From the NCBI RefSeq assembly GCF_013122565.1, contig NZ_CP053258.1: a DNA stretch of 64,000 bases; one strand, written 5' to 3'. Shown in pieces: positions 1,492-24,668 of this stretch (position 1 is its first letter; the number at the start of each line of letters is the position of its first letter). Source of the DNA: Escherichia coli. GTDB taxonomy: Bacteria; Pseudomonadota; Gammaproteobacteria; Enterobacterales; Enterobacteriaceae. The notes beneath the pieces were generated by a model. The model had not been told where the DNA came from. It was given only the letters and a program-made list of their open reading frames with translations, and searched no databases. The position numbers and the translations under genes are program-made.

Positions 1492-1502
1492 GACAGAATA
1501 CC

Positions 1503-1650: not shown

Positions 1651-1722
1651 AAACACAGGCACTTTGTCACCAATCTGAAACCAGCGTCATAAAAAGCCGA
1701 TTGCTACTCGACAAGACGTCCG

Positions 1723-4479
1723 TTACCCGAGAATTTTGCTGGCTTCGCGCGCGACATTATCCATCTCGTCCAACAGTTCCAGCAGCTCCGGCTCCAAATC
1801 TTCTTCTTTAGTACCGCTACGTAGCTGTTGTTCGATCAGTTGGCAGAGATTCTTCATACGCGGCACACCGCTATAGCCGCAACTGCCATGCAGTTTATGA
1901 ATCAAATCAACCAGGCCTTCCGGGTTTTCTCCAACCAGCTGTTCCTCAACTTTGTTGCGAACTTCAGGCAGGAAATCGAGTAACATTTGCAGCATATCGC
2001 GCGCTAAATCGGTTTTTCCTGCTGCCTGGCGTAGTGCCAGTTGCCAGTCGAGGGTCGCATTCGGGTTCACCACAATTTCGTTGACTTCGGGCGTCACGAC
2101 GCGAGAGGAAATACCGCTGCCAGGCTTGTAGCGCAACAACAAATTATGCAATCGCTCTTCTTCAATCGGTTTCGCCAGATAATCGCTCATCCCTGCGCCA
2201 AGCAGCTTCTCTTTTTGCCCGGCCATTGCATGCGCCGTTACCGCGATAACCGGCGTTTGTTGCTGATGGGGGAGCTGGTGGATGAGCTCGCAGGCCCGAA
2301 TGCCATCCATGTCCGGCATTTGAATATCCATTAAGATCAAATCGAACGGCATCTGTTTCGCCCGTTCAACCGCCTGATGCCCGCTATCGCAAAGTTCCAC
2401 ATGTTGCACCATATCTTCCAGCAATGCGCCGATAAGTTTCAGGTTAGCGGGGTTGTCATCAACCGCCATGACTGTCATTGCCAGCTTACTTTCATCGGTT
2501 ACAGGCAAAAGCGTGTTTTGTTTGTGATGACAAAATTCCGTCAGGGCAGGCAACAGGCGCGTAGGTGTTAATGGTTTCAGCAGACACGCGCCGATACCAT
2601 CTTGCTTAAGTTTTTCAGCATTGACTTGTGCATGGCAAGGAAGTGCCAGCATCAGGAAATCGGTCATCGATACCGCTTTCGCTAATCGCTCATGTTGCAT
2701 TGTTAGCGGCTCGCGGAAGGTCACCGCGATGCCTAACAACATCATGTCGTAATGCGCGGGAGGCAGCGCGGAGAACGTTGGGCTATAAACCACTTCCAGC
2801 GGCGTTTCACTTAAAATATCCAGCGTGCATTGCGCTGCTGCGGAGTTTGGTTCGACATAGGCCAGGCGCTTACCTGCGAGGCACTGGGTGGATGGCCCTT
2901 CGATAATAATGTTCGGGTTCAGATCGAGATTAATGTGGAACCAGAAAGTTGAACCGCGATTTGGCTGGCTATGGAACGAAATATCGCCGCCCATTTCATT
3001 AACCAGTTTTTGTGTAATCACCAGCCCCAGCCCGGTGCCACCATGACGGCGGGAAATACTGGCATCAGCCTGTCGGAAGGCCTGGAATAAGCGCGATTGA
3101 TCGCGTTCAGGAATACCAATGCCGGTATCCCGAATCTGCACTTCAATCTGCACTTTGGTATTACTCAGCGCACGTTTTTCTACCAGAATATCAATGTTGC
3201 CATTCTCGGTGAATTTAATTGCATTCCCCACCAGGTTAGTGATGATTTGCTGTAATCGCAGTGGGTCGCCGATCACGTTATCAGGCACGTCGCTTTTAAT
3301 ATTGAGCGTCAGTTCCAACCCTTTATCGTGAGAAGAATGTGCCAGCAGAGTAACGACTTCATCCAGCGTGCTGCGTAGTGGGAATGGAATACTTTCCAGA
3401 ATCAGCTTACCTGCTTCCAGTTTCGAGAAGTCGAGAACATCATTAATAATTGCCAGCAAATTATTTGCTGAACGTTCAATCGTATTCAGGTGATCGCGCT
3501 GCGTTGGTGTTAATTCTGTTTTCAGTGTCAGGCGGGTAAAGCCAATAACACCATTCAGTGGTGTACGCAGCTCGTGTGACATATTTGCCAGAAACTCGGA
3601 TTTAATACGCGCCGCTTCCTGGGCGCGCTTTTTCGCCAGATCCAACTCAACGTTCTGAATTTCCATCTGCTCCAGCGTTTCACGCAGATCGGACGTCGCC
3701 TGGTCGATATTGTGCTGCATCTCTTCGTGATAAGCAGCCAGCGACATTGCCATCGAGTTGATACCGTTTTTCAGCATATCCAGCTCGCCGAGCATAAATC
3801 CTTCCACCCGGCTGTCGAGTTGCCCGCGACGGATGCGGTCGACGGTATTCACCATGTTGCGAATCGGACCGGTTACATCGCGCATTAAGCGCCAGCCAAA
3901 AATAAGCGCAATACCGATACAAAACAGCATCATCACGCTGGAAATAAAGATCTCTTTATATTGCTGCAAGCGAACCGATTTAAGATCCAGCTCAAGCGCA
4001 ATATATCCCAACATATTTTGACTATTTTTGGCATCGCTACTGGGCGATTCGTCGGGGGAATAACTCTCAGAAATAATCGGCGTGCGGAGGATCATAATAT
4101 CGCCGTCACGAGTGACAGTGAGCTGGCGAGGAAACGGCACGTTGCTGCCGAGCTGCATTGATGAGGGATCAAGATGAAAATTGGAGGTGACAAAGAGTCG
4201 GTTATTTTCATCATAAACCGAAATCGCGCGAACAATATCAGAATGGCGACGATGCAGTACGCTTATTAACTGACCGATAGATTCGCGATTTTGCAGGCTC
4301 ATGCCATATTCAGTAGAAACTGCAAGCGGCTCAATAATGCTGGCACCGGCATCTTCCAGTTGACGCTGCAAGTCGTTATAGCGATGCACGACGAAAAAGA
4401 TACTCAGCAATAAACCAATAAGGACGGTCGGTGCCAGGATCAGAATCATCATGCGTGCGCGCAGGCTGTAGTTGGTCAT
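1723..4479 (-). CDS. barA: Hybrid sensor histidine kinase BarA
   Basis: 918 aa ORF with TM N-terminus, HAMP, HisKA (SHELRTPLN), HATPase, receiver and HPt domains. Confidence 0.95.
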
Positions 4480-5884: not shown

Positions 5885-8119
5885 ATGGTTGCGGTAAGAA
5901 GTGCACATATCAATAAGGCTGGTGAATTTGATCCGGAAAAATGGATCGCAAGTCTGGGTATTACCAGCCAGAAGTCGTGTGAGTGCTTAGCCGAAACCTG
6001 GGCGTATTGTCTGCAACAGACGCAGGGGCATCCGGATGCCAGTCTGTTATTGTGGCGTGGTGTTGAGATGGTGGAGATCCTCTCGACATTAAGTATGGAC
6101 ATTGACACGCTGCGGGCGGCGCTGCTTTTCCCTCTGGCGGATGCCAACGTAGTCAGCGAAGATGTGCTGCGTGAGAGCGTCGGTAAGTCGGTCGTTAACC
6201 TTATTCACGGCGTGCGTGATATGGCGGCGATCCGCCAGCTGAAAGCGACGCACACTGATTCTGTTTCCTCCGAACAGGTCGATAACGTTCGCCGGATGTT
6301 ATTGGCGATGGTCGATGATTTTCGCTGCGTGGTCATCAAACTGGCGGAGCGTATTGCTCATCTGCGTGAAGTAAAAGATGCGCCGGAAGATGAACGCGTA
6401 CTGGCGGCAAAAGAGTGCACCAATATCTACGCGCCGTTGGCAAACCGTCTTGGGATTGGGCAACTGAAATGGGAGCTGGAAGATTACTGCTTCCGTTATC
6501 TCCACCCGACCGAATACAAACGCATCGCAAAACTGTTGCATGAACGCCGTCTCGACCGCGAACACTATATCGAAGAGTTTGTCGGTCATCTGCGCGCTGA
6601 GATGAAAGCTGAAGGCGTTAAAGCTGAAGTGTATGGTCGTCCGAAACACATCTACAGCATCTGGCGCAAAATGCAGAAAAAGAACCTCGCCTTCGATGAG
6701 CTGTTTGATGTGCGTGCGGTACGTATTGTCGCCGAGCGTTTACAGGATTGTTATGCCGCACTGGGGATAGTGCACACTCACTATCGCCACCTGCCGGATG
6801 AGTTTGACGATTATGTCGCTAACCCGAAACCAAACGGTTATCAGTCTATTCATACCGTGGTTCTGGGGCCGGGTGGAAAAACCGTTGAGATCCAAATCCG
6901 CACCAAACAGATGCATGAAGATGCAGAGTTGGGTGTTGCTGCGCACTGGAAATATAAAGAGGGCGCGGCAGCTGGCGGCGCACGTTCGGGACATGAAGAC
7001 CGGATTGCCTGGCTGCGTAAACTGATTGCGTGGCAGGAAGAGATGGCTGATTCCGGCGAAATGCTCGACGAAGTACGTAGTCAGGTCTTTGACGACCGGG
7101 TGTACGTCTTTACGCCGAAAGGTGATGTCGTTGATTTGCCTGCGGGATCAACGCCGCTGGACTTCGCTTACCACATCCACAGTGATGTCGGACACCGCTG
7201 CATCGGGGCAAAAATTGGCGGGCGCATTGTGCCGTTCACCTACCAGCTGCAGATGGGCGACCAGATTGAAATTATCACCCAGAAACAGCCGAACCCCAGC
7301 CGTGACTGGTTAAACCCAAACCTCGGTTACGTCACAACCAGCCGTGGGCGTTCGAAAATTCACGCCTGGTTCCGTAAACAGGACCGTGACAAAAACATTC
7401 TGGCTGGGCGGCAAATCCTTGACGACGAGCTGGAACATCTGGGGATCAGCCTGAAAGAAGCAGAAAAACATCTGCTGCCGCGTTACAACTTCAATGATGT
7501 CGACGAGTTGCTGGCGGCGATTGGTGGAGGGGATATCCGTCTCAATCAGATGGTAAACTTCCTGCAATCGCAATTTAATAAGCCGAGTGCCGAAGAGCAG
7601 GACGCCGCCGCGCTGAAGCAACTTCAGCAAAAAAGCTACACGCCGCAAAACCGCAGTAAAGATAACGGTCGTGTGGTGGTTGAAGGTGTCGGTAACCTGA
7701 TGCACCACATCGCGCGCTGCTGCCAGCCGATTCCTGGAGATGAGATTGTCGGCTTCATTACCCAGGGACGCGGTATTTCAGTACACCGCGCCGATTGCGA
7801 ACAACTGGCGGAACTGCGCTCCCATGCGCCAGAACGCATTGTTGACGCGGTATGGGGCGAGAGCTACTCCGCCGGATATTCGCTGGTGGTCCGCGTGGTG
7901 GCTAATGATCGTAGTGGGTTGTTACGTGATATCACGACCATTCTCGCCAATGAGAAAGTGAACGTGCTTGGCGTTGCCAGCCGTAGCGACACCAAACAGC
8001 AACTGGCGACCATCGACATGACCATTGAGATTTACAACCTGCAAGTGCTGGGTCGCGTGCTGGGTAAACTCAACCAGGTGCCGGATGTTATCGACGCGCG
8101 TCGGTTGCACGGGAGTTAG
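5885..8119 (+). CDS. relA: GTP pyrophosphokinase ((p)ppGpp synthetase I)
   Basis: 744 aa; ends ...VPDVIDARRLHGS, typical RelA. Confidence 0.96.
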   Translation: MVAVRSAHINKAGEFDPEKWIASLGITSQKSCECLAETWAYCLQQTQGHPDASLLLWRGVEMVEILSTLSMDIDTLRAALLFPLADANVVSEDVLRESVGKSVVNLIHGVRDMAAIRQLKATHTDSVSSEQVDNVRRMLLAMVDDFRCVVIKLAERIAHLREVKDAPEDERVLAAKECTNIYAPLANRLGIGQLKWELEDYCFRYLHPTEYKRIAKLLHERRLDREHYIEEFVGHLRAEMKAEGVKAEVYGRPKHIYSIWRKMQKKNLAFDELFDVRAVRIVAERLQDCYAALGIVHTHYRHLPDEFDDYVANPKPNGYQSIHTVVLGPGGKTVEIQIRTKQMHEDAELGVAAHWKYKEGAAAGGARSGHEDRIAWLRKLIAWQEEMADSGEMLDEVRSQVFDDRVYVFTPKGDVVDLPAGSTPLDFAYHIHSDVGHRCIGAKIGGRIVPFTYQLQMGDQIEIITQKQPNPSRDWLNPNLGYVTTSRGRSKIHAWFRKQDRDKNILAGRQILDDELEHLGISLKEAEKHLLPRYNFNDVDELLAAIGGGDIRLNQMVNFLQSQFNKPSAEEQDAAALKQLQQKSYTPQNRSKDNGRVVVEGVGNLMHHIARCCQPIPGDEIVGFITQGRGISVHRADCEQLAELRSHAPERIVDAVWGESYSAGYSLVVRVVANDRSGLLRDITTILANEKVNVLGVASRSDTKQQLATIDMTIEIYNLQVLGRVLGKLNQVPDVIDARRLHGS

Positions 8120-8214
8120 TCTTACATAGCTGGATATGGCGTCAGCCGTATCCAGCGATATCTTTTACTCGAAGGTATTACACCTGACAGATCCGCAATT
8201 TTCAGGACAATTCA

Positions 8215-9006
8215 ATGAATCAAATCGACCGTTTGCTCACCATCATGCAGCGTCTTCGCGACCCGGAAAACGGCTGCCCGTGGGATAAAGAGCAGACATT
8301 TGCAACCATTGCGCCTTACACCCTTGAAGAAACCTACGAAGTGCTGGACGCCATCGCCCGCGAAGACTTTGACGATCTGCGCGGTGAACTCGGCGATCTG
8401 CTGTTCCAGGTGGTGTTTTACGCACAAATGGCCCAGGAAGAAGGGCGCTTTGATTTTAATGATATTTGCGCCGCGATTAGCGATAAATTAGAGCGTCGCC
8501 ATCCGCATGTTTTTGCTGACAGTTCTGCCGGAAACAGCCGCGAAGTTCTCGCCCGTTGGGAGCAAATCAAAACCGAAGAGCGCGCGCAGAAAGCGCAGCA
8601 TTCGGCGCTGGACGATATTCCTCGTAGTTTACCAGCCTTAATGCGTGCGCAAAAAATCCAGAAACGTTGCGCCAACGTTGGCTTCGACTGGACGACGCTT
8701 GGCCCGGTGGTTGATAAAGTCTACGAAGAGATCGATGAGGTGATGTGCGAGGCACGGCAGGCTGTTATCGACCAGGCTAAACTGGAGGAGGAAATGGGGG
8801 ACCTGCTGTTTGCCACGGTCAATCTGGCTCGTCATTTAGGGACAAAAGCGGAAATCGCATTGCAAAAAGCGAACGAAAAATTCGAGCGTCGTTTTCGCGA
8901 AGTGGAGCGTATTGTTGCCGCGCGTGGACTGGAAATGACAGGTGTTGACCTCGAAACAATGGAAGAAGTCTGGCAACAGGTAAAACGGCAGGAAATTGAT
9001 CTCTAA
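8215..9006 (+). CDS. mazG: Nucleoside triphosphate pyrophosphohydrolase MazG
   Basis: 263 aa, tandem MazG domains; starts 95 bp after the relA stop. Confidence 0.94.
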   Translation: MNQIDRLLTIMQRLRDPENGCPWDKEQTFATIAPYTLEETYEVLDAIAREDFDDLRGELGDLLFQVVFYAQMAQEEGRFDFNDICAAISDKLERRHPHVFADSSAGNSREVLARWEQIKTEERAQKAQHSALDDIPRSLPALMRAQKIQKRCANVGFDWTTLGPVVDKVYEEIDEVMCEARQAVIDQAKLEEEMGDLLFATVNLARHLGTKAEIALQKANEKFERRFREVERIVAARGLEMTGVDLETMEEVWQQVKRQEIDL

Positions 9007-10943: not shown

Positions 10944-12257
<1,314 letters not shown>

Positions 12258-12275
12258 GTCTGACTTTATCTGATT

Positions 12276-12308
12276 TAAAAATGCCAGCCTCCGGGCTGGC
12301 ATTTTTTA
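12276..12308. terminator. Bidirectional rho-independent terminator between convergent eno and ygcG
   Basis: aaaaatgccagcc-tccg-ggctggcatttttt: perfect stem flanked by A-run and T-run. Confidence 0.75.
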
Positions 12309-12316
12309 TGGTTGAG

Positions 12317-13189
12317 TTACCAGCGGCCAGATGCGCCGCCCCCGCCAGAAGAACCGCCCCCGCCGCTAAACCCGCCGCTATCTGAGCCTCCAGCGGAACC
12401 GCTGTTGTCTGAATGATAACTTCTACCAGATGCTCTTTTCTGAAGTACACATAAACAGGTAAAGACCATAAATATGGTGAAAGTAAAAAAGAAGGAAAAT
12501 ACAGCAATGGAAAAAGTTTTATCGGAGAACAGGAATAAATCTAAAAGATAGATTGCTGAAATACAGACTCCACTTTTACATGCGCGACAAAAATTACTGC
12601 CTTGATGAAAAAACCAGAAAGGGAAGAACATCACTGCAAATACCCAAAAAATAGCAAAGTAATAATGATCACTGGAAGACGCTGATTCACTTTCTGAAGG
12701 ATTAGCCGGATATTGGTGTTGTGAAGTGAGTTGGTTATTCAAAGCGTTTATAGCTAGCTCTAATCCCTGAGCTAATTTTTGTTGTTTAAATGCGGGTATC
12801 ATGTTGCTACGGATGATATCTCCAGCCAGAGCATCGGTTACCTTTTCTTCCAGCCCATAACCTACCTGGATGCGGACAGTACGATCCGACCAGGCAACAA
12901 TGATCAGTATCCCATCATTACGTTTGGCATCTCCTAAACGCCAATTGTCAAAAACTCTTGTAGCATATTGTTCAATTGTCTCGTCTTTGGTTGTGGGAAC
13001 AATTAATACAGCAATTTGCACTTGGGTATTATTGAAAATAGATTCTAACTTGTACGTCAGTTCTTTCTTTTCTTGTGAGTTTAAGCTACTGGTAAGATCC
13101 GTAACTTGTTGCTGTAATGATGGGACAATAGTTGGTTGGGCTGCAACAAAGGAACACACGAATGTGAACATTAGTATGAAATAGCGCAT
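12317..13189 (-). CDS. ygcG: TPM-domain protein YgcG (signal peptide, Gly/Ser-rich C-terminus)
   Basis: ORF track 12317..13471; internal start [19 protein letters not shown] (signal peptide) gives 290 aa; the 5' extension is AT-rich and unlikely to be coding. Confidence 0.8.
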
Positions 13190-13481
13190 TATAAATTTCT
13201 CATTAAATCTGGATAAATAAATTGACGGCGGCATCGGTAATTTGAGATTCGTTATCATTAAAAAAGAATACAGAAAAATAAATATAAATTTGGTGAATGT
13301 TTTTGACATGATTAAATCCATTTTCTTTATTTTCTTCTGACATAATACGTTACTCCCTTTAATTCTTAACGATATGTTTCGCATTTTTCTTGAAACCTGC
13401 CTGTAACAGAATGTTAATAAGACATGATTGTTGTGGCAGGATCTGCAATAATTAACAATTATCCACTTCACAGAGAATGCT

Positions 13482-14153
13482 ATGCAGTACCCGATTAACG
13501 AGATGTTCCAGACCCTGCAAGGTGAGGGTTACTTTACCGGCGTCCCCGCCATTTTTATTCGTTTACAGGGATGCCCGGTTGGCTGTGCCTGGTGCGACAC
13601 CAAACACACCTGGGAAAAGCTTGAGGATCGGGAAGTCTCCCTTTTCAGCATTCTGGCGAAGACCAAAGAGAGTGATAAGTGGGGGGCGGCGAGCAGTGAA
13701 GACTTGCTGGCTGTCATTGGTCGCCAGGGATATACCGCGCGGCATGTGGTGATTACGGGGGGTGAGCCTTGCATTCATGATTTGCTGCCACTGACTGACC
13801 TGCTCGAAAAGAACGGTTTTAGCTGCCAGATCGAAACCAGTGGTACTCATGAAGTACGCTGTACACCGAATACCTGGGTTACCGTATCGCCAAAGCTGAA
13901 CATGCGCGGCGGCTATGAAGTGTTGTCACAGGCACTGGAGCGAGCCAACGAAATCAAGCATCCAGTGGGACGCGTACGTGATATTGAAGCACTGGATGAA
14001 CTTTTGGCGACGCTGACCGATGATAAACCGCGAGTCATTGCACTGCAGCCGATTAGCCAAAAGGATGATGCCACACGTTTGTGCATTGAAACCTGCATTG
14101 CGCGTAATTGGCGTTTGTCGATGCAAACCCATAAATATTTAAATATTGCCTGA
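13482..14153 (+). CDS. queE: 7-carboxy-7-deazaguanine synthase (radical SAM)
   Basis: 223 aa; CxxxCxxC-type cluster motif ([13 protein letters not shown]). Confidence 0.92.
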
Positions 14154-14160
14154 TTAAACA

Positions 14161-14490
14161 TTTATAAGTGTTATAAATGGGTGGAACCTGTAAAGAATTC
14201 CACTCATTTATATTGTTTGTCGCCTCTGAAAACCCCTCTTTTTTGCCCATCCTTGACTAATCATTATCATTCTCTACAAATTCTGTGGCGTTAATTTTTC
14301 GCTGGAGTGAAAATTATTGCGGTAAAGTTTGGTAGATTTTAGTTTGAATAGAGTTATTTTAAATATTTATCTTTTTAATCAATGGATTAAGTGCTCTTTA
14401 ACATAATGGATGTGTTGTTTGTGTGATCCTGTAAAGTTGTTAGATTGTGACTGGCTTAAAAAATCATTAATTAATAATAGGTTATGTTTA
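14161..14490 (+). promoter_or_regulatory. CRISPR leader (AT-rich), ending ...ctggcttaaaaaatcattaattaataataggttatgttta
   Basis: AT-rich block abutting the first repeat; the 3' end matches the E. coli type I-E leader terminus as I recall it. Confidence 0.7.
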
Positions 14491-14702
14491 GAGTTCCCCG
14501 CGCCAGCGGGGATAAACCGGCGATTATAGCGGACTTTCAAGAGAACAGTCTGAGTTCCCCGCGCCAGCGGGGATAAACCGTGGAAAATCACCGACAATAT
14601 TCGACATGGAGAGAGTTCCCCGCGCCAGCGAGGATAAACCGTTATCGGTCATCAACTATAGCGCGTATTTACTAAGTTCCCCGTTCCAACACGAATAATC
14701 CG
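14491..14702 (+). CDS. placeholder
   Basis: placeholder. Confidence 0.
14491..14702 (+). CRISPR. Type I-E CRISPR mini-array: 4 repeats (4th degenerate), 3 spacers of 32 bp
   Basis: Repeats GAGTTCCCCGCGCCAGCGGGGATAAACCG at 14491, 14552, 14613 (one G>A change) and a degenerate copy at 14674; AT-rich leader upstream. Confidence 0.93.
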
Positions 14703-14767
14703 ATAATATCGACGATACCAACCTAATATTATCAAATGTTAAAGGTTCTAATTTAAGAGGAAATTTA

Positions 14768-15031
14768 ATGTCTACGTTAATGGAAAAAGAATCTCTCCTG
14801 AATGGCGTGAGTCAAAATATTGCATTTTTATCAAATGTATCTGAAATGGTTTACAACTCTCAGAATGAAGAGTTGCAGTATGAAATATATGAGCTGGTGA
14901 GTTATAAAGATTATCTATACTCAACAGACCATGAACTTGTTGATTTTCAAGAGGGAGTATTACGATTTCAACAAATTAGAACAAAATACAGGCAAGAGCT
15001 AAAAGAACTCGGTTATCCTGTAGGTAATTAA
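14768..15031 (+). CDS. Hypothetical small protein (87 aa), no recognised family
   Basis: ORF preceded by AAGAGGA Shine-Dalgarno about 7 nt upstream of the ATG; AT-rich codon usage unlike flanking core genes. Confidence 0.5.
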   Translation: MSTLMEKESLLNGVSQNIAFLSNVSEMVYNSQNEELQYEIYELVSYKDYLYSTDHELVDFQEGVLRFQQIRTKYRQELKELGYPVGN

Positions 15032-15393
15032 GAAATATTGTCTTGATGGTGGGGAAACGTAATTTTTTATATTTTAAATATTAGATTAAAACAATAAATT
15101 AATATCATACTTTTATTTTATTCTCGAAAATGCCTAATTTCATTAAATACGTTGTCCTGTAAATGTAAACCGGGCATTTTTCCGCCCGGTCTCCCTCGAT
15201 TACGCTTCTGAGCAGGTCTCGAGCGAATTCACACTCTCCCGTTCAACTTGCATCACCAGTTGGTTAAATTCAGTCAAACTCTCGCTCATAATAATAATGT
15301 CGCAGTCGTCTTCCATGTCATGCCCCAGATATCCAGAACACAACACCCTAACATAGCGTTACTTAAGGGAAATTGACCGCCGACACACTCTTA

Positions 15394-15759
15394 TCATTCG
15401 CCGCGATAGATACAACCTGCGGTGCAGGTTTCTTTCACCATCACTGCACTTAATAGCGGCACAACGGGTTTAACCTGATCCCAAATCCATTTTGCTAAAA
15501 CTTCGCTGGTTGGGTTTTCCAGACCTGGAATATCATTGAGATAATGGTGATCGAGGCGCTCATAAGTTGGCTTAAACGCCGCTTTCAGTTCAGCGAAATC
15601 GATAATCCAGCCCGTATGCGGATCGACTTCCCCGGTAATTTCCAGTCGCACCATAAAGGAATGCCCGTGCAGGCGACCACATTTATGTCCTTCCGGGACG
15701 TGTGGTAAGCGGTGAGCGGCTTCGAAGGTGAAATCTTTAAATAACGTGGTGGACATCAT
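15394..15759 (-). CDS. queD: 6-carboxy-5,6,7,8-tetrahydropterin synthase
   Basis: ORF track 15394..15843; start at [19 protein letters not shown] gives about 121 aa; PTPS family with zinc-binding His motif. Confidence 0.9.
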
Positions 15760-16074
15760 AATTTCTCTACATGACGATAAAACCGCCGTAGAGTACCGGA
15801 AAGGCTGTTTTTTCGCATTATCTAAAACGACTTTGTTGCGCAAAATCGCTGATTTATCTTAATGATTGGCTAAATTCATTTGTTTTTCATTAGGTTGGTT
15901 AATCTATTTTGTTGTTAAAGACTATTGCTAAAACAGGTTAGTCGATTTGGTTATTAGTTATCGCTATCCCGTCTTTAATCCACACCGTTCACCCCGTTAA
16001 CCTTACCTTCTCTTCTGTTTTATGGGCGCTGACAGGGCGCAGAAACAGCTTTGCTTACTGGAACATAACGACGC

Positions 16075-17874
16075 ATGACGACACAGGTCCCACCTTCCGC
16101 GTTGCTTCCGTTGAACCCGGAGCAACTGGCACGCCTTCAGGCGGCCACGACCGATTTAACTCCCACCCAGCTTGCCTGGGTTTCTGGCTATTTCTGGGGC
16201 GTGCTCAATCAGCAGCCTGCTGCGCTTGCAGCGACGCCAGCGCCAGCCGCAGAAATGCCGGGTATAACTATTATCTCCGCCTCGCAAACTGGCAATGCGC
16301 GCCGGGTTGCTGAAGCATTACGCGATGATTTATTGACGGCAAAACTGAACGTTAAGCTGGTGAACGCGGGCGACTATAAATTCAAACAAATCGCCAGCGA
16401 AAAACTGCTCATCGTAGTGACGTCAACGCAAGGGGAAGGGGAACCGCCGGAAGAAGCCGTCGCGCTGCATAAGTTCCTGTTCTCCAAAAAAGCGCCAAAG
16501 CTGGAAAACACCGCGTTTGCCGTGTTTAGCCTCGGCGATAGCTCTTATGAATTTTTCTGCCAGTCCGGGAAAGATTTCGACAGCAAGCTGGCGGAACTGG
16601 GCGGTGAACGCCTGCTCGACCGTGTCGACGCCGACGTTGAATACCAGGCTGCTGCCAGCGAGTGGCGCGCCCGCGTGGTTGATGCGCTTAAATCGCGTGC
16701 GCCTGTCGCGGCACCTTCGCAATCCGTCTCTACTGGCGCGGTAAATGAAATCCACGCCAGCCCGTACAGCAAAGACGCGCCGCTGGTGGCGAGCCTCTCT
16801 GTTAACCAGAAAATTACCGGGCGTAACTCTGAAAAAGACGTTCGCCATATCGAAATTGACTTAGGTGACTCGGGCCTGCGTTACCAGCCGGGTGACGCGC
16901 TGGGCGTCTGGTATCAGAACGATCCGGCACTGGTGAAAGAACTTGTCGAACTGCTGTGGCTGAAAGGCGATGAACCTGTCACCGTCGAGGGCAAAACGTT
17001 GCCTCTGAACGAAGCGCTACAGTGGCACTTCGAACTGACCGTCAACACCGCCAACATTGTTGAGAATTACGCCACGCTTACCCGCAGTGAAACACTGCTG
17101 CCGCTGGTGGGCGATAAAGCGAAGTTACAGCATTACGCCGCGACCACGCCGATTGTCGACATGGTGCGTTTCTCTCCGGCGCAACTGGATGCCGAAGCGC
17201 TGATTAATCTGCTGCGTCCGCTGACCCCGCGCCTGTATTCCATCGCCTCCTCGCAGGCGGAAGTCGAGAACGAAGTACACGTCACCGTTGGTGTGGTGCG
17301 TTACGACGTGGAAGGCCGCGCCCGTGCCGGTGGTGCCTCCAGCTTCCTCGCGGATCGTGTGGAAGAAGAGGGCGAAGTCCGCGTATTTATCGAACATAAC
17401 GATAACTTCCGTTTGCCTGCTAACCCGGAAACCCCGGTGATTATGATTGGCCCCGGTACCGGCATCGCGCCGTTCCGTGCCTTTATGCAGCAACGCGCCG
17501 CCGACGAAGCGCCGGGTAAAAACTGGCTGTTCTTTGGCAACCCGCACTTTACGGAAGATTTCCTCTACCAGGTGGAGTGGCAGCGCTACGTCAAAGAGGG
17601 CGTGCTGACGCGTATCGATCTTGCCTGGTCGCGCGACCAAAAAGAAAAAGTTTATGTACAAGACAAACTGCGCGAACAGGGCGCGGAGCTGTGGCGCTGG
17701 ATCAATGACGGTGCCCACATTTATGTCTGCGGCGACGCTAATCGCATGGCGAAAGACGTTGAGCAGGCACTTCTGGAAGTGATTGCCGAATTTGGTGGCA
17801 TGGACACCGAAGCGGCGGATGAATTTTTAAGTGAGCTGCGCGTAGAGCGCCGTTATCAGCGAGATGTCTACTAA
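16075..17874 (+). CDS. cysJ: Sulfite reductase [NADPH] flavoprotein alpha subunit
   Basis: 599 aa; flavodoxin plus FAD/NADPH reductase domains. Confidence 0.96.
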
Positions 17875-19586
17875 TGAGCAAAAAACATCCAGGGCCTTTA
17901 GTGGTCGAAGGAAAACTGACAGACGCCGAGCGCATGAAGCTTGAAAGCAACTACCTGCGCGGCACCATTGCGGAAGATTTAAACGACGGTCTGACCGGCG
18001 GCTTTAAGGGCGACAACTTCCTGCTGATCCGCTTCCACGGCATGTATCAGCAGGATGACCGCGACATCCGCGCCGAACGTGCTGAACAGAAGCTGGAGCC
18101 GCGCCACGCGATGCTGCTTCGCTGTCGTCTGCCGGGTGGGGTGATTACCACTAAACAGTGGCAGGCGATCGACAAATTTGCCGGTGAAAACACCATCTAT
18201 GGCAGCATTCGCCTGACCAACCGCCAGACGTTTCAGTTCCACGGCATTCTGAAAAAGAACGTCAAACCGGTGCACCAGATGCTGCACTCGGTCGGTCTTG
18301 ATGCGCTGGCGACCGCTAACGACATGAACCGTAACGTACTCTGCACCTCGAACCCTTACGAGTCGCAGCTGCACGCGGAAGCATATGAATGGGCGAAGAA
18401 AATCTCTGAACATCTGCTGCCGCGTACTCGCGCGTATGCGGAGATCTGGCTCGATCAGGAAAAAGTCGCCACCACTGATGAAGAGCCGATCCTTGGTCAG
18501 ACCTACCTGCCGCGTAAGTTCAAAACCACGGTAGTGATCCCGCCGCAGAACGATATCGATCTGCACGCCAACGACATGAACTTCGTGGCGATCGCCGAAA
18601 ACGGCAAGCTGGTGGGCTTTAACCTGCTGGTGGGCGGTGGGCTTTCTATCGAACACGGCAACAAGAAAACCTACGCCCGCACGGCGAGTGAGTTTGGCTA
18701 TCTGCCGCTAGAACATACGCTGGCGGTGGCGGAAGCCGTCGTGACAACTCAGCGTGACTGGGGTAACCGAACCGATCGTAAAAATGCCAAAACCAAATAC
18801 ACGCTGGAGCGCGTGGGGGTTGAGACGTTTAAAGCGGAAGTGGAGCGTCGCGCGGGGATCAAATTTGAACCGATCCGTCCGTATGAGTTCACCGGACGCG
18901 GCGATCGTATTGGCTGGGTTAAGGGCATTGATGATAACTGGCACCTGACGCTGTTTATCGAAAATGGTCGCATCCTTGATTATCCGGGGCGTCCGCTGAA
19001 AACTGGCCTGCTGGAGATCGCGAAGATCCACAAAGGTGATTTCCGCATTACGGCGAACCAGAATTTGATCATCGCCGGTGTGCCGGAAAGTGAGAAAGCG
19101 AAGATCGAGAAGATCGCCAAAGAGAGCGGGTTAATGAATGCCGTCACGCCGCAGCGTGAAAACTCAATGGCCTGCGTGTCATTCCCGACTTGCCCGCTGG
19201 CGATGGCGGAAGCAGAGCGTTTCCTGCCGTCTTTTATCGACAACATCGACAATTTAATGGCGAAACATGGTGTCAGCGATGAGCATATCGTGATGCGTGT
19301 AACAGGCTGCCCGAACGGTTGTGGTCGCGCGATGCTGGCGGAAGTGGGCCTGGTGGGTAAAGCGCCGGGTCGCTACAACCTGCATCTTGGCGGCAACCGC
19401 ATTGGGACACGTATCCCACGGATGTATAAAGAAAACATCACCGAGCCGGAAATCCTGGCGTCGCTTGATGAACTGATAGGGCGCTGGGCGAAAGAGCGCG
19501 AAGCGGGTGAAGGCTTCGGCGACTTTACGGTGCGTGCGGGCATCATTCGCCCGGTGCTCGATCCGGCGCGCGATTTGTGGGATTAA
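17874..19586 (+). CDS. cysI: Sulfite reductase [NADPH] hemoprotein beta subunit
   Basis: 570 aa; overlaps the cysJ stop (ATGA); siroheme/Fe-S Cys motifs. Confidence 0.96.
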
Positions 19587-19602
19587 CCATCAGCCCGGTC
19601 TT

Positions 19603-19638
19603 GTAGGCCTGATAAGACGCGTGAGCGTCGCATCAGGC
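19603..19638. repeat. REP element between cysI and cysH
   Basis: gtaggcctgataagacgcgtgagcgtcgcatcaggc, a REP variant. Confidence 0.65.
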
Positions 19639-19659
19639 AAGGCAAACAGTGAGGAATCT

Positions 19660-20394
19660 ATGTCCAAACTCGATCTAAACGCCCTGAACGAACTGCCGAA
19701 GGTAGATCGCATTCTGGCGCTGGCGGAAACTAACGCCCAACTGGAAAAACTGGATGCTGAAGGCCGCGTTGCCTGGGCGCTGGATAATCTGCCCGGTGAA
19801 TATGTACTTTCTTCCAGCTTTGGTATTCAGGCGGCGGTGAGCCTGCATCTGGTGAATCAGATTCGGCCGGATATTCCAGTGATCCTCACCGATACCGGTT
19901 ATCTGTTCCCGGAAACCTACCGCTTTATTGACGAGTTAACGGACAAACTCAAGCTCAACCTGAAAGTGTACCGTGCTACCGAAAGCGCCGCCTGGCAGGA
20001 AGCACGCTACGGCAAACTGTGGGAGCAGGGCGTTGAAGGCATTGAAAAGTACAATGACATCAACAAAGTCGAACCGATGAACCGGGCGCTGAAAGAACTG
20101 AATGCGCAAACGTGGTTTGCTGGCCTGCGCCGTGAACAATCCGGCAGCCGCGCCAATTTACCGGTGCTGGCAATTCAGCGTGGCGTATTTAAAGTACTGC
20201 CGATTATCGATTGGGATAACCGAACGATATATCAGTATCTGCAAAAGCATGGCCTGAAATATCACCCATTATGGGACGAAGGATATTTATCGGTCGGTGA
20301 TACCCATACAACCCGTAAATGGGAACCCGGCATGGCGGAAGAAGAAACACGTTTCTTTGGTTTAAAAAGGGAGTGTGGGTTACACGAAGGGTAA
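19660..20394 (+). CDS. cysH: Phosphoadenosine phosphosulfate (PAPS) reductase
   Basis: ORF track 19507..20394; ATG at 19660 gives 244 aa [19 protein letters not shown]... Confidence 0.94.
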
Positions 20395-20560
20395 ATATTG
20401 CCGGATAAATTAAACGCCTCTGTCAGAAATGATGGGGGCGTTTTTATTTTGCGAGCAGCATTCCTGATTTTAAACGTGAACGCCGCTGGAAGAATTATCA
20501 GGTATAGAATGGCGTCGGGTGCTTGAGGCTGTCTGGCGTTAAGCATTCGCGAGGTTCCAG

Positions 20561-20665
20561 ATGGACAAAAGCCCCAGGCGATATTTCTATCAACCTGAGG
20601 CTTACGTTCGAACCCAAACAATTCGAATGTTAGTCTCTTCTTTGCAGGGAGGCAAGACATGCTGA
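20561..20665 (+). CDS. mok-like leader ORF overlapping the hok start
   Basis: 34-codon ORF whose TGA overlaps the hok ATG (ATGCTGA) in another frame, the arrangement typical of hok/mok loci. Confidence 0.3.
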
Positions 20666-20811
20666 CAAAATATGCCCTTGTGGCAATCATCGTACTGTGT
20701 TGTACAGTACTGGGATTCACGCTGATGGTAGGCGACTCGTTGTGTGAGTTGAGTATCAGAGAACGTGGTATGGAGTTTAAGGCAGTTCTCGCTTACGAAT
20801 CGAAGAAGTAG
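20659..20811 (+). CDS. Hok/Gef-family type I toxin (50 aa small membrane protein)
   Basis: Hand translation [50 protein letters not shown] has the Hok pattern (TM helix, then L-C-E-hydrophobic, then a conserved AYES-type C-terminus); absent from the ORF track because under 60 aa. Confidence 0.75.
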
Positions 20812-20815
20812 CCAC

Positions 20816-20876
20816 CACGCGGGGGTAAAACCCCGCGTACTGAATTGTGATGGTTTGGTCTCCTGCACCCTTTTTT
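20816..20876 (+). terminator. hok 3' stem-loop and T-run
   Basis: cacgcggggg-taaaa-ccccgcgt hairpin just after the stop, then ...caccctttttt. Confidence 0.5.
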
Positions 20877-21048
20877 AATTTATATTATTTATGTGAGTAT
20901 TATGCCTATGTTTATTATTTATATATATTACGGATGAAAATCATTTAATTATTCACAATGTAAATATTTTATTGAAAGATATATGTCACAGATAATTTTT
21001 AATATGTGCGTAAATATCCTTTAAGTTTTACTGAAGGATAAAAATATT

Positions 21049-22392
21049 GTGACTTTCTTTGATTTCTGGGGAAAAACCCGACGTGGCGAGAAAGAAGGGG
21101 GCGACGGCTATCACCTTCTTTGCTGGCATTCGCTGGATGTGGCCGCGATGGGCTATTTAATGGTTAAAAGAAATTGCTTCGGGCTGGCTGACTATTTTCG
21201 TCAATTAGGGATTTCTGACAAGGAACAGGCAGCTCAATTTTTCGCCTGGTTGCTGTGCTGGCACGATATTGGAAAATTTGCCCGCTCTTTTCAACAACTT
21301 TACCTGCCCCCTGAATTCAAGATTCAGGAAGGTGCCAGAAAAAATTACGAAAAAATCTCTCATTCAACGCTGGGCTACTGGTTGTGGAATCATTATTTAA
21401 GTGAATGTCAGGAGTTACTTCCTTCATCTTCGCTCTCTCCGCGCAAACTTAGGCGAGTGATAGAAATGTGGATGCCCGTGACGACAGGGCATCATGGTCG
21501 GCCCCCTGATCGTATGGATGAATTGGATAATTTTCTGCCTGAAGACAAAGCTGCAGCACGAGATTTTCTCCTTGAAATCAAACCACTGTTTCCGCTCATA
21601 GAGATCCCCGCATTCTGGGATGATGATGAGGGCATTGAACTTATAAAACACCTTTCCTGGTATATCTCTGCAACCGTCGTGCTCGCAGACTGGACGGGTT
21701 CGTCAACGCGATTTTTTCCACGCGTCGCACACCCAATGGATATTAAAGGTTACTGGCAGAAAACTTTAGTTCAGGCTCAAAATGCCTTAACCGTCTTTCC
21801 TCTAAAAGCAAAAGTCGCGCCTTTCACCGGAATTAATACGCTGTTTCCTTTTATTGAGAATCCGACACCGTTACAGCAAAAGGTGCTGGATCTGGATATC
21901 AGCCAGCCAGGGCCACAGTTATTTATTCTGGAAGATGTGACTGGCGCAGGTAAAACGGAAGCGGCGCTTATCCTGGCGCACAGGTTGATGGCTGCGGGTA
22001 AAGCGCAGGGTTTGTTTTTTGGCCTGCCAACAATGGCAACGGCCAATGCCATGTATGATCGGCTCGTCAAAACCTGGCTTTCTTTCTATTCGCCAGAATC
22101 TCGCCCCAGCCTGGTGCTGGCACACAGTGCCCGCACATTAATGGACCGCTTTAATGAATCACTCTGGTCCGGTGATTTAATCGGGTCAGAAGAACCGGAT
22201 GAACAAGCTTTCAGCCAGGGTTGTGCGGCCTGGTTTGCCGACAGTAACAAGAAGGCGTTGCTGGCTGAAATTGGCGTCGGCACCCTGGATCAGGCGATGA
22301 TGGCAGTGATGCCGTTTAAACATAATAATCTGCGGCTTCTGGGGCTGAGTAACAAAATCGTGTTCCCCGCGCCAGCGGGGATAAACCGATGA
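21049..22392 (+). pseudogene. cas3: Truncated cas3 (type I-E): HD nuclease domain and helicase motif I only, reading through into the first CRISPR repeat
   Basis: 447-codon ORF with GTG start; HD motif (HSLDV..WHDIGK) and Walker A (DVTGAGKTEA); the frame ends ...[18 protein letters not shown], where the last residues are translated repeat; no DExH motif II or C-terminal domain. Confidence 0.8.
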
Positions 22393-24586
22393 ATATTTGC
22401 GAATATTCGGCAGAAAGCGGGTGTTCCCCGCGCCAGCGGGGATAAACCGAGGTTGCGGCACAAATTGAGGTTGTCGCAAATGTGTTCCCCGCGCCAGCGG
22501 GGATAAACCGCCGACGCAGCAGCGGCAGCAGCGGCAGCAGCGGTGTTCCCCGCGCCAGCGGGGATAAACCGTGGATCAGTGCCGCGTTCTCTCTCCGTGT
22601 AATGTGTTCCCCGCGCCAGCGGGGATAAACCGATCGAGACGGGTACGCGTAAAGCCGAGCTGGCGTGTTCCCCGCGCCAGCGGGGATAAACCGCGATCGG
22701 TTAATTCTTCTACCTGCCTTTGCAGGTGTTCCCCGCGCCAGCGGGGATAAACCGCCCGCAATGCATTCGGGCAGTTCCTTGCCGGGGTGTTCCCCGCGCC
22801 AGCGGGGATAAACCGGAGATTGAGCCAGACGCCCGCCAGGTGTTACTGTGTTCCCCGCGCCAGCGGGGATAAACCGGAAGTAACACACCCAACCCAGGTT
22901 GCGCCAGAGTGTTCCCCGCGCCAGCGGGGATAAACCGCCTGTTTGAGCAGGCGCGAATGAACCGGACCAGTGTTCCCCGCGCCAGCGGGGATAAACCGTC
23001 AGGTAAGCCAGTGTTAGGGGCAATATAGCAGTGTTCCCCGCGCCAGCGGGGATAAACCGTCATCGGCTCGTTATTTGTAGCCAGCACTACGGTGTTCCCC
23101 GCGCCAGCGGGGATAAACCGCTTTATCAGATGGTAAAGGTGAATCAATATGAGTGTTCCCCGCGCCAGCGGGGATAAACCGATACCCCAGCGTTTCGTTA
23201 TATGACGGAAGATGTGTTCCCCGCGCCAGCGGGGATAAACCGTGCAACCAGGACGGCAGGACGCATCGCCAGATGTGTTCCCCGCGCCAGCGGGGATAAA
23301 CCGCACGTTATTATCCGATATTCACCGATAAGCGTGTGTTCCCCGCGCCAGCGGGGATAAACCGTCTGGGCGTAAACAGTCGGATAAATCGCGGGTGTGT
23401 TCCCCGCGCCAGCGGGGATAAACCGGCGGCGTGTGGGGTAACAATCAGGGAGAGAAAGTGTTCCCCGCGCCAGCGGGGATAAACCGGATAAATACAGTAT
23501 ATTCCCGCGCTCTGCTGGCGTGTTCCCCGCGCCAGCGGGGATAAACCGTAGATTTTGTCCGGCTCAGGTGCGCCGATGGTGTGTTCCCCGCGCCAGCGGG
23601 GATAAACCGATCGAGTACAACAAAAAATATACTGAGTGAGTGTGTTCCCCGCGCCAGCGGGGATAAACCGCTGTTTGCTCCTGCTGCTCATTTAGTGATT
23701 TAGTGTTCCCCGCGCCAGCGGGGATAAACCGCCTGTTCTTTTTTAGTCAACTTAACCATGCTCGTGTTCCCCGCGCCAGCGGGGATAAACCGTCTTTTTC
23801 GAGACTTGCAGCAACGCTCTGAAAGTGTTCCCCGCGCCAGCGGGGATAAACCGATCGAGTAGTTTTGAGGGTTGGTGAATTCAGGGTGTTCCCCGCGCCA
23901 GCGGGGATAAACCGCTTAATAAATGGACTTAAGCGCCCAGTATTGGGTGTTCCCCGCGCCAGCGGGGATAAACCGGGGAGGGCGAGCCGCCGTAGGTGCG
24001 GTGAGGGGTGTTCCCCGCGCCAGCGGGGATAAACCGACGCAGAAACTGGTTGAAATAGTTTACGGTGAGTGTTCCCCGCGCCAGCGGGGATAAACCGGCA
24101 GTAAATTATTTGACCTCGTTGATAATCCCGTGTTCCCCGCGCCAGCGGGGATAAACCGGTGGCGGTGTGATTGTGGGACTTATTGCCATCGTGTTCCCCG
24201 CGCCAGCGGGGATAAACCGGGCCTTTTCAGCAGATTAACCGCCGCGATTGCGTGTTCCCCGCGCCAGCGGGGATAAACCGAGAGATTTATATTCTTTCAA
24301 ACCGGATTATATCGTGTTCCCCGCGCCAGCGGGGATAAACCGCTTCAAGAATTTTTAAACGCTGGCTTCAAAATGTGTTCCCCGCGCCAGCGGGGATAAA
24401 CCGTCCCACGCGTGCCAGATGGCGCGTTTGATGGCGTGTTCCCCGCGCCAGCGGGGATAAACCGATGATAACGGCAAAGGGTACGCTACGTACAACGTGT
24501 TCCCCGCGCCAGCGGGGTTAAACTGTGATCCAGTGAGTACCGATCCGGGAACAACCGGTGTTCCTCGCATCAGCGGGGATAAACCG
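22360..24586 (+). CRISPR. Type I-E CRISPR array, 37 recognisable repeats and 36 spacers, no adjacent cas operon or leader
   Basis: 29-bp repeat GTGTTCCCCGCGCCAGCGGGGATAAACCG at 61-bp period from 22360; spacers 32 bp except two of 33 bp (after repeats 19 and 32); repeats 36 and 37 degenerate; a possible further decayed copy near 24619..24648. Confidence 0.97.
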
Positions 24587-24668
24587 GGTGCACTGGATGC
24601 GATGATGGATATCACTTGGCGTTCCCCCGCCCCTGCGGTAGAACTCCCAGCTCCCATTTTCAAACCCA

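What the first reader, a model, noticed from the sequence alone, without database searches (positions are those of the whole stretch)
14161..14702. CRISPR mini-array with intact leader in a compact queE-queD interval
A 4-repeat, 3-spacer type I-E array follows an AT-rich leader whose 3' end matches the canonical E. coli leader terminus. The last repeat is heavily mutated (aagttccccgttccaacacgaataatccg). The whole queE-to-queD interval is only about 1.2 kb, whereas K-12, as I recall, carries a multi-gene ygc island between this array and queD. So this locus has an acquisition-competent leader but no cas1/cas2 in the vicinity, and marks a variable hotspot.
Basis: partly seen in the sequence, partly recalled or inferred. 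Interest (0 to 1): 0.35.

Follow-up and report, generated by a model that had tools for sequence, protein, structure and literature searches.

The report
Orphan E. coli CRISPR-II mini-array
This is the well-known second CRISPR array of Escherichia coli (CRISPR-II / CRISPR2.3, next to queE), here a three-spacer relic in a strain that has deleted its cas genes, so the array itself is ordinary; the way the cas genes were lost nearby is the more interesting thing.

Summary
There are four 29-nt type I-E repeats at 14491, 14552, 14613 and 14674, with three 32-nt spacers. A 337-nt AT-rich leader precedes them and is 94% identical to the K-12 CRISPR-II leader. The queE-queD interval is 1,240 bp, against 12,167 bp in K-12.

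This is the known E. coli CRISPR-II (CRISPR2.3) locus. Spacer 2 matches HK97-like phages with an ATG PAM, the motif preferred by the E1 cas variant, so the array was once active.

It is now an orphan. The 64-kb window has no cas1, cas2 or Cascade genes. The E1-type cas3 is cut at nt 1353 and joined directly to a leaderless 37-repeat CRISPR2.1 array.

- The leader is not fully intact. It lacks 2 bp (GA) at the leader-repeat junction, a lesion seen in none of 4,549 complete genomes.
- The compact interval is a rare old allele, found in 7 of 5,426 genomes and in E. fergusonii. It keeps remnants of ygcE and ygcN and an orphan antitoxin-like ORF.

Side finding: seven independent cas3 truncations all end exactly at the first base of a repeat.

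The parts
13482..14153 (+). queE (ygcF), the gene that flanks the leader side of the CRISPR-II locus
   Evidence: The 223-aa ORF is 100% identical to K-12 QueE and has Radical_SAM Pfam hits.
14154..14490 (+). Leader 2.3 (CRISPR-II leader), AT-rich, lacking its last 2 nt (GA)
   Evidence: It is 94.4% identical to the K-12 leader and 94.1% to the E. fergusonii leader, with 29.7% G+C. The 2-bp deletion at 14490|14491 is shared only with L011 and L012 and is absent from 4,549 complete genomes.
14377..14389 (+). Perfect IHF consensus (AATCAATGGATTA) at -114..-102
   Evidence: Consensus scan. It is conserved in K-12 CRISPR-II. Its role has not been tested.
14457..14469 (+). IHF-type element TAAAAAATCATTA. 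It is positionally equivalent to the mapped CRISPR-I IHF site but sits 2 bp closer to the repeat
   Evidence: it has 2 mismatches to WATCAANNNNTTR, the same as the K-12 CRISPR-I element at -35..-23. In K-12 CRISPR-II it lies at -36..-24; here it lies at -34..-22.
14491..14519 (+). Repeat 1 (GAGTTCCCCGCGCCAGCGGGGATAAACCG)
   Evidence: It folds into a 7-bp stem at -15.1 kcal/mol.
14520..14551 (+). Spacer 1 (newest), no known target
   Evidence: No match in phages, plasmids or E. coli genomes, and no exact 24-mer match in IMG/VR. It is shared with draft L011.
14552..14580 (+). Repeat 2
14581..14612 (+). Spacer 2, derived from an HK97-like lambdoid phage
   Evidence: 31 of 32 nt match HK97 gp60, HK446, HK544, CUS-3, mEp506 and others. 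The protospacer is preceded by ATG, and the only mismatch is at spacer position 1.
14613..14641 (+). Repeat 3 (G>A in the stem)
   Evidence: The stem is weakened to -8.2 kcal/mol.
14642..14673 (+). Spacer 3 (oldest, the anchor spacer)
   Evidence: Among complete genomes it is found as a spacer only in the 7 that carry the same compact allele. It is also in L012.
14674..14702 (+). Degenerate terminal repeat (8/29 mismatches, no hairpin)
   Evidence: A homologous degenerate repeat ends the E. fergusonii array.
14768..15031 (+). 87-aa ORF, an orphan epsilon-like antitoxin homologue
   Evidence: No Pfam or NCBIfam hit; it matches phrog_25145. Homologues P0011, P0013 and P0014 each lie immediately upstream of a Zeta_toxin (PF06414) gene. 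No zeta remnant is present here.
15170..15256 (-). Diverged remnant of the ygcE 3' end
   Evidence: 76% identical to K-12 at the position of the ygcE stop.
15288..15316 (-). First 29 nt of ygcN (right-hand deletion boundary)
   Evidence: 100% identical to K-12 across the queD 3' end, the intergenic region and the ygcN start.
15394..15759 (-). queD
   Evidence: 100% identical to K-12 QueD; PTPS Pfam hit.
21007..22359 (+). Truncated cas3 (E1 variant, HD domain plus the start of the helicase), cut at nt 1353
   Evidence: 97% identical to aa 8-453 of the 899-aa PT62 Cas3 and 30% identical to K-12 Cas3. Cas3_HD Pfam hit.
22360..24588 (+). Leaderless CRISPR2.1 array of 37 repeats, joined base-for-base to cas3 nt 1353
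   Evidence: There is no leader, Cascade, cas1 or cas2 between it and cas3.

Best explanation
The feature is the E. coli CRISPR-II locus: leader 2.3 followed by a CRISPR2.3 array of four type I-E repeats and three spacers, downstream of queE. It was built by a type I-E adaptation machinery of the E1 (O157-type) variant. The oldest spacer, at the degenerate end, is shared with relatives. The two leader-proximal spacers are lineage-specific, and one came from an HK97-like phage next to an ATG motif. In this strain the array is a non-functional relic. The cognate cas operon at the cysH-iap locus has been deleted from the middle of cas3 up to a repeat of CRISPR2.1, which removed Cascade, cas1, cas2 and the CRISPR2.1 leader. 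The array may still be transcribed from its leader, which is inferred and not shown here. Its transcript could not be cut by Cas6e or loaded into Cascade, and no new spacers can be added. The leader also lacks 2 bp at the integration site. The short queE-queD interval is a rare alternative allele, also present in E. fergusonii. In this allele ygcN-ygcE were deleted, leaving 29 nt of ygcN and about 87 nt of ygcE, and an orphan antitoxin-like gene lies beside the array.
For: Repeat sequence, period and significance. Leader homology. Position relative to queE, queD, cysJIH, cas3 and iap matches K-12 synteny. Spacer 2 protospacer with an ATG PAM; ATG (written CAT in the paper) is the motif preferred by the cas-EO/E1 variant (PMC3737337). 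Polarity: spacer 3 is shared with the 7 compact-allele genomes and L012, while spacers 1-2 are shared only with L011. cas loss: tblastn with K-12 (E2) and PT62 (E1) Cas proteins finds only cas3 aa 8-453, and the junction was read directly. Conservation of leader 2.3 in cas-less strains and the orphan arrays of BL21 are documented (PMC3903273; PMC3737337). Allele rarity and its presence in E. fergusonii.
Against: Only 64 kb of the genome was seen, so a cas operon elsewhere cannot be excluded, although E. coli I-E cas genes are known only at the cysH-iap site. Transcription of the array was not tested, and the promoter scan was no better than chance. The effect of the 2-bp junction deletion is inferred. 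L012 shares the deletion but carries different leader-proximal spacers, which could mean the altered junction still accepted spacers.
Confidence: 0.88

Rival explanations
1. The array is a dormant but competent landing pad. If Cas1-Cas2 were supplied in trans, from a plasmid or by horizontal re-acquisition of a cas module, it would take up spacers normally, as the BL21-AI CRISPR2.3 array does.
For: Leader 2.3 is 94% conserved, including the proximal 60 bp that Yosef et al. found necessary (cited in PMC3737337). Repeats 1 and 2 are perfect. L012 shares the 2-bp-deleted junction but has different proximal spacers, which is compatible with uptake after the deletion.
Against: The 2-bp loss removes leader positions -1 and -2, within the reported Cas1-Cas2 contact (-1 to -4), and moves the IHF-type element 2 bp closer to the repeat (PMC10011333; PMC5224486). 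No complete genome shares the lesion. The spacer differences between L012 and the window can equally be explained by one block deletion in each lineage.
Confidence: 0.45
2. The array is still an active immune memory, served by I-E cas genes located outside the window.
For: There is no direct evidence. Two perfect repeats and a conserved leader would allow processing if Cas6e and Cascade were present.
Against: The canonical cas site is occupied by a truncated cas3 fused to the array. E. coli I-E cas genes are described only at iap-cysH (PMC3903273). I-F proteins do not use type 2 repeats (established knowledge).
Confidence: 0.05
3. The repeats are a chance or unrelated repetitive element (REP/BIME-type) and not a CRISPR.
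For: None.
Against: The repeats are identical to the E. coli type I-E repeat, with 40 copies in the window against 0 in shuffles. The period is a strict 61 nt, the leader is homologous and one spacer is phage-derived with a PAM.
Confidence: 0.01

Closest known systems
E. coli K-12 CRISPR-II (CRISPR2.3 array with leader 2.3, ygcE-ygcF locus)
   Same: It has the same position next to queE (ygcF) and the same orientation. The leader is 94.4% identical, and the repeat family and 61-nt unit are the same.
   Different: K-12 has 7 repeats of the GTG (type A) form, while here there are 4 of the GAG form. K-12 has a canonical TTTAGA|G junction, while here 2 bp are missing. K-12 has a different trailer and the 10.7-kb ygcN-ygcE island, while here there are only 29-nt and about 87-nt remnants plus an 87-aa ORF. 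K-12 keeps a complete (E2) cas operon.
Orphan CRISPR arrays of E. coli BL21 / BL21-AI (no cas genes, leaderless CRISPR2.1, CRISPR2.3 with leader)
   Same: The overall state is the same: CRISPR2.1 without leader or cas genes, and CRISPR2.3 with its leader retained (PMC3737337). BL21-AI shows that such an array accepts spacers when Cas1-Cas2 is supplied.
   Different: Here a 1.35-kb cas3 fragment remains, fused to the array, and the CRISPR2.3 leader-repeat junction is mutated.
E. fergusonii queE-CRISPR-queD locus (GCA_013886335.1, L008)
   Same: It has the same compact architecture. The trailer with the small ORF is about 96% identical, the degenerate terminal repeat is homologous, and the ygc island is also absent.
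   Different: E. fergusonii has 11 repeats, a canonical junction and a 75-aa version of the ORF. No spacers are shared.
Epsilon/zeta-type toxin-antitoxin modules (for the 87-aa ORF)
   Same: Three homologues (51-66% identity) lie directly upstream of Zeta_toxin genes, overlapping them in two cases.
   Different: No toxin gene or remnant follows the ORF here. There is no Pfam assignment. The antitoxin role is inferred from gene order only.

Membership tests
Type I-E CRISPR array (E. coli type 2 repeats) | 29-nt repeat matching GWGTTCCCCGCGCCAGCGGGGATAAACCG | tested here: met
   Repeats 1-2 are identical to the consensus, repeat 3 has 1 mismatch and repeat 4 has 8 mismatches.
Type I-E CRISPR array (E. 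coli type 2 repeats) | Fixed 61-nt unit with unique 32-nt spacers | tested here: met
   The spacing is 61, 61, 61, and the three spacers are unrelated to one another.
Type I-E CRISPR array (E. coli type 2 repeats) | Repeat forms the 7-bp hairpin recognised by Cas6e | tested here: met
   Folding energies are -15.1 kcal/mol for R1 and R2, -8.2 for R3, and no hairpin for R4. So at most spacers 1 and 2 could mature.
Type I-E CRISPR array (E. coli type 2 repeats) | Spacers derived from mobile elements next to an I-E PAM | tested here: met
   Spacer 2 matches HK97-like phages at 31/32 nt with an ATG PAM. Spacers 1 and 3 have no target.
E. coli CRISPR-II locus (CRISPR2.3) | Leader 2.3 between queE (ygcF) and the first repeat | tested here: met
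   94.4% identity over 339 aligned columns.
E. coli CRISPR-II locus (CRISPR2.3) | ygcE on the trailer side | tested here: not met
   Only a remnant of about 87 nt, 76% identical, remains. The ygcN-ygcE genes are absent by tblastn.
[quoted passage not shown] | cas1 and cas2 present | tested here: not met
   tblastn with the E1 and E2 proteins gives no hit in the 64-kb window. The rest of the genome was not seen.
[quoted passage not shown] | Cascade genes (cse1, cse2, cas7, cas5, cas6e) and full-length cas3 | tested here: not met
   Only cas3 aa 8-453 of 899 is present, and it carries only the HD domain by Pfam.
[quoted passage not shown] | Canonical leader-repeat junction (…TTTAGA|G…) with the IHF site at fixed distance | tested here: not met
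   There is a 2-bp deletion at the junction, and 0 of 4,549 complete genomes share it. The functional consequence was not tested.
Epsilon/zeta toxin-antitoxin module (87-aa ORF) | Zeta toxin gene immediately downstream of the small ORF | tested here: not met
   Present for homologues P0011, P0013 and P0014. Absent here: tblastn at E<=10 on 14601-15500 and at E<=0.01 on the whole window finds no zeta match.

The most novel reading that the evidence does not exclude
The reason this array is an orphan may be a repeat-boundary-specific deletion mechanism that has not been described. In the window, and in six other independent E. coli/Shigella lineages, an E1-type cas3 is cut at a different internal position (nt 915, about 1092, 1196, 1353, 1470, 1671, 2046). 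Each time it is joined to the very first base of a CRISPR2.1 repeat, which removes Cascade, cas1, cas2 and the leader. That boundary is exactly where Cas1-Cas2 joins an incoming 3'-OH during half-site integration. One reading is therefore a 'suicidal' integrase-catalysed capture of a broken cas3 end by a repeat. The alternative is recombination between a cas3-derived self spacer and its source. Six of the seven breakpoints also fall on a codon boundary, which is unexplained.
Probability: 0.35. Interest if true: 0.6.

Novelty: already known. Interest (0 to 1): 0.2.

Why it matters
The array itself adds nothing new. CRISPR-II arrays with conserved leaders in cas-less E. coli are documented, and BL21 is the laboratory example. 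Three details have some value:
- A natural 2-bp deletion at the leader-repeat junction is a ready-made test of how strictly Cas1-Cas2/IHF measure that junction.
- The compact queE-queD allele shared with E. fergusonii shows that the CRISPR-II flank is not as invariant as reported. PMC3903273 found 'no significant variations'.
- The exact cas3-to-repeat fusions suggest that cas operons in E. coli can be lost by a mechanism tied to the repeat boundary, and not only by the IS-mediated deletions proposed so far.

Tried and rejected
- Rfam (gathering threshold) on 12000-26000 found only sok and no CRISPR family, so it was uninformative for the array.
- The sigma-70 promoter scan of the leader gave 5 sites against 5.3 expected, so no promoter call was made.
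- The strict IHF consensus (up to 1 mismatch) is absent from -9..-35 in the window and also in both K-12 leaders. Only a 2-mismatch element equivalent to the K-12 one was found, so the IHF check is inconclusive by sequence alone.
- Spacers 1 and 3 have no match in phages, plasmids or E. coli genomes outside arrays, and no exact 24-mer in IMG/VR.
- The 87-aa ORF has no Pfam or NCBIfam hit. The idea that it is the N-terminal fragment of a 308-aa phage protein (phrog_25145) was dropped, because all seven homologue clusters are 82-122 aa.
- A zeta-toxin remnant downstream of the ORF was looked for and not found.
- Self-spacer recombination as the origin of the cas3|repeat fusions has little support. 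No repeat-spacer-repeat copy of the tested junction 32-mers (all but the 1353 and 915 ones returned only fusion hits, and those two returned none) exists in 5,426 complete genomes. None of the 7 has ATG or AAG at the PAM position. No CRISPR2.1 spacer of the window matches the window or a cas operon.
- A first concatenated junction query failed because megablast aligned it periodically to every array. It was redesigned.
- The window genome is not among the complete E. coli genomes; the best flank identity is 98.9%. An identical 7.8-kb contig exists in run SRR11451224.

Full report
1. OBSERVATION

The sequence at 14161-14702 is as described. There are four direct repeats 61 nt apart at 14491, 14552, 14613 and 14674. 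Repeats 1 and 2 are GAGTTCCCCGCGCCAGCGGGGATAAACCG. Repeat 3 has one G>A change. Repeat 4 (AAGTTCCCCGTTCCAACACGAATAATCCG) differs at 8 of 29 positions.

The 27-nt repeat core, with up to 3 mismatches, occurs 40 times in the window and never in 100 shuffles. Within 14101-15450 no other site comes within 11 mismatches of the repeat, against a shuffle mean of 0.015.

Repeats 1 and 2 fold into the canonical 7-bp hairpin at -15.1 kcal/mol. Repeat 3 folds more weakly at -8.2. Repeat 4 does not fold.

2. IDENTITY

The gene order in the window is the K-12 order in reverse: eno, ygcG/yqcG, queE, array, queD, cysJ, cysI, cysH, hok/sok, cas3, array, iap. QueE and QueD are 100% identical to the K-12 proteins.

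The 337 nt between queE and the first repeat have 29.7% G+C. They align end to end with the K-12 CRISPR-II leader at 320/339 (94.4%) and with the E. fergusonii leader at 94.1%.

This is therefore the CRISPR-II locus (CRISPR2.3 array with leader 2.3) described by Diez-Villasenor, Almendros and Mojica. They report that leader 2.3 is conserved in E1, E2 and cas-less strains alike (PMC3903273).

3. HISTORY OF THE ARRAY

- Spacer 2 (14581-14612) matches 31 of 32 nt in HK97 gp60 and in HK446, HK544, CUS-3, mEp506 and other lambdoid phages, and in prophages of about 146 E. coli genomes. In HK97 the protospacer is preceded by ATG, and the only mismatch is at spacer position 1.
- ATG (written CAT on the other strand) is the acquisition motif preferred by the cas-EO/E1 variant, whereas K-12 prefers AAG (PMC3737337). 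The cas3 fragment in this window is of the E1 type, so the two observations agree.
- Spacer 3, next to the degenerate repeat, occurs as a spacer only in the seven complete genomes that share the compact allele, and in draft L012.
- Spacers 1 and 2 are shared only with draft L011, which is 99.2% identical in the flanks. This is the usual polarity: old spacers are shared at the distal end and new ones lie at the leader.
- Spacers 1 and 3 have no detectable target.

4. WHY IT IS AN ORPHAN

tblastn with the K-12 (E2) Cas proteins and with the E1 set from strain PT62 finds only one thing in 64 kb: Cas3 residues 8-453 of 899, at 97% identity to E1 and 30% to K-12.

Read directly, cas3 runs to nt 1353 (…GAGTAACAAAATC). 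The next base is the first base of a repeat (GTGTTCCCCGCG…) at 22360. From there 37 repeats run to 24588, just before iap.

Cascade, cas1, cas2 and the CRISPR2.1 leader are gone. Only the window was examined, so cas genes elsewhere are not formally excluded. However, E. coli I-E cas genes are described only at this site (PMC3903273).

The overall state is that of BL21: a leaderless CRISPR2.1, no cas genes, and CRISPR2.3 with its leader (PMC3737337).

5. THE LEADER IS NOT QUITE INTACT

Nine other leaders were examined: K-12, E. fergusonii and seven other E. coli loci. All end …ATGTTTAGA|G(A/T)GTTCC. The window, L011 and L012 end …ATGTTTA|GAGTTCC.

A 65-nt query across the junction found the leader in 4,549 of 5,426 complete genomes. 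None was identical; the best matches are 97% identical with a 2-nt gap. The simplest origin is slippage in AGAGAG.

The lost bases are leader positions -1 and -2, inside the reported Cas1-Cas2 contact (-1 to -4). The loss also moves the IHF-type element from -36..-24 to -34..-22 (PMC10011333; PMC5224486). An effect on acquisition is an inference.

L012 shares the deletion but has four different leader-proximal spacers. That fits either continued uptake after the deletion or one block loss in each lineage.

A perfect IHF consensus lies at 14377-14389 and is conserved in K-12. Its role is unknown.

6. THE COMPACT INTERVAL

The queE-queD interval is 1,240 bp here and 12,167 bp in K-12, where it holds ygcN, O, P, Q, R, S, U, W, yqcE and ygcE. 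At least 80% of that island is present in 5,061 of 5,426 complete genomes.

The whole interval of the window is found in only seven complete genomes, in several drafts, and in E. fergusonii. There the trailer is about 96% identical and the array ends in a homologous degenerate repeat.

The window keeps the first 29 nt of ygcN (15288-15316, 100% identical to K-12) and a 76%-identical piece spanning the ygcE stop (15170-15256). So the island was deleted and not simply never present.

A second, independent compact allele keeps a 448-bp ygcE fragment instead. The site is therefore variable, which differs from the statement in PMC3903273 that the CRISPR-II flanks show no significant variation.

Between the last repeat and the ygcE remnant lies a 467-bp AT-rich segment that K-12 lacks, with an 87-aa ORF (14768-15031). 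The ORF has no Pfam or NCBIfam hit. Its few homologues are all 82-122 aa. Three of them sit directly upstream of a Zeta_toxin gene in plasmid-like contexts. No toxin remnant follows it here. I read it as an orphan epsilon-like antitoxin gene, by gene order only.

7. SIDE FINDING: cas3|REPEAT FUSIONS

The exact cas3|repeat joint is not unique to this window. Loci fetched for other reasons, and truncated Cas3 proteins whose tails translate the repeat ([10 protein letters not shown] or CSPRQRG), gave seven different joints.

| cas3 breakpoint (nt) | Where found | Complete genomes |
|---|---|---|
| 915 | L011, L012 | 0 |
| 1091/1092 | S. flexneri; one G is ambiguous | 0 |
| 1196 | L023, L024 | 6 |
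| 1353 | window | 0 |
| 1470 | L022 | 12 |
| 1671 | L021 | 5 |
| 2046 | L005 | 12 |

In every case the cas3 sequence is followed immediately by base 1 of a 29-nt repeat. If deletion end points were random within a 61-nt unit, this would be vanishingly unlikely.

Two mechanisms define that boundary:
- (a) Recombination between a cas3-derived self spacer and its source. This mechanism gains little support: no repeat-spacer-repeat copy of any junction 32-mer was found, and the triplet where the PAM would lie is TGG, TGG, TCT, ATA, GAA, GCG, ATA, never ATG or AAG.
- (b) Cas1-Cas2 joining a free cas3 3'-OH to the leader-side border of a repeat, which is the chemistry of half-site integration (PMC10011333). 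This mechanism fits the chemistry but is untested.

Six of the seven breakpoints are multiples of 3, which I cannot explain.

The papers I could search ascribe cas-E loss to IS elements and do not mention such joints (PMC3903273; PMC6990116). Cas3 also decays by other routes: in-frame internal deletions, and cas3-cas7 and cas3-cas1 fusions.

8. VERDICT

The finding is real and correctly named. It describes a known locus in a known (orphan) state, with a mutated junction and a rare flank allele. The interest of the array itself is low. The repeat-boundary fusions deserve a systematic survey.

Noticed in passing
window 21007-24588: An E1-type cas3 truncated at nt 1353 is joined base-for-base to the first nucleotide of a repeat of a leaderless 37-repeat CRISPR2.1 array. 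Cascade, cas1, cas2 and the leader are deleted.
   Followed up: yes
L011 17154|17155; L005 16431|16432; L021 5671|5672; L022 1699|1700; L023 2696|2697; L025 about 1120: Six further independent cas3|repeat fusions (cas3 nt 915, 2046, 1671, 1470, 1196, about 1092) all end at base 1 of a repeat. Four of the junction types occur in 35 complete E. coli genomes in total. None of the 7 has a canonical PAM 33-35 nt upstream, and 6 of 7 breakpoints fall on codon boundaries.
   Followed up: partly
window 8119-8215: The mazEF toxin-antitoxin genes are absent between relA and mazG (96-nt gap). The closest complete genomes (O169:H41 group, strain 88-3493; 98.9% identity) show the same gapless arrangement. 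Draft L012 keeps only a mazE-like ORF.
   Followed up: partly
window 20517-20811: A hok/sok module lies between cysH and cas3: Rfam sok at 113 bits, and a 50-aa Hok ORF at 20659-20811. This is as reported for all strains except those with the K-12-type cas variant.
   Followed up: partly
window 14768-15031: An 87-aa ORF lies beside the array. Its homologues sit directly upstream of Zeta_toxin genes, so it is a likely orphan antitoxin. It is found only in E. coli and E. fergusonii at this locus.
   Followed up: yes
E. coli genome hits H8-H17 and H223-H234: Genomes with a compact queE-queD interval tend also to carry a cas3|repeat fusion. Six of the seven with the ORF87 allele carry junction 2046, and those with the ygcE-remnant allele carry junction 1470. 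It is not resolved whether this is shared ancestry or something more.
   Followed up: no
window 22511-22542, 23487-23519, 24281-24313: One CRISPR2.1 spacer is a low-complexity GCA/GCG run (CCGACGCAGCAGCGGCAGCAGCGGCAGCAGCG). Two spacers are 33 nt instead of 32 nt. None of the 36 spacers matches the window or a cas operon.
   Followed up: partly
window 12317-13471: The mechanical ORF over ygcG is 384 aa, but only the last 290 aa correspond to K-12 YgcG (97.9% identity). The small yqcG gene (13206-13343) is 76% identical to the K-12 protein and is annotated as frameshifted in related genomes.
   Followed up: no
proteins P0018, P0019, P0021, P0027, P0041, P0076: Other decay forms of E1 cas3 occur in public E. 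coli genomes: in-frame internal deletions (one at a WLT/WLT microhomology, on 71 contigs) and in-frame cas3-cas7 and cas3-cas1 fusions.
   Followed up: partly
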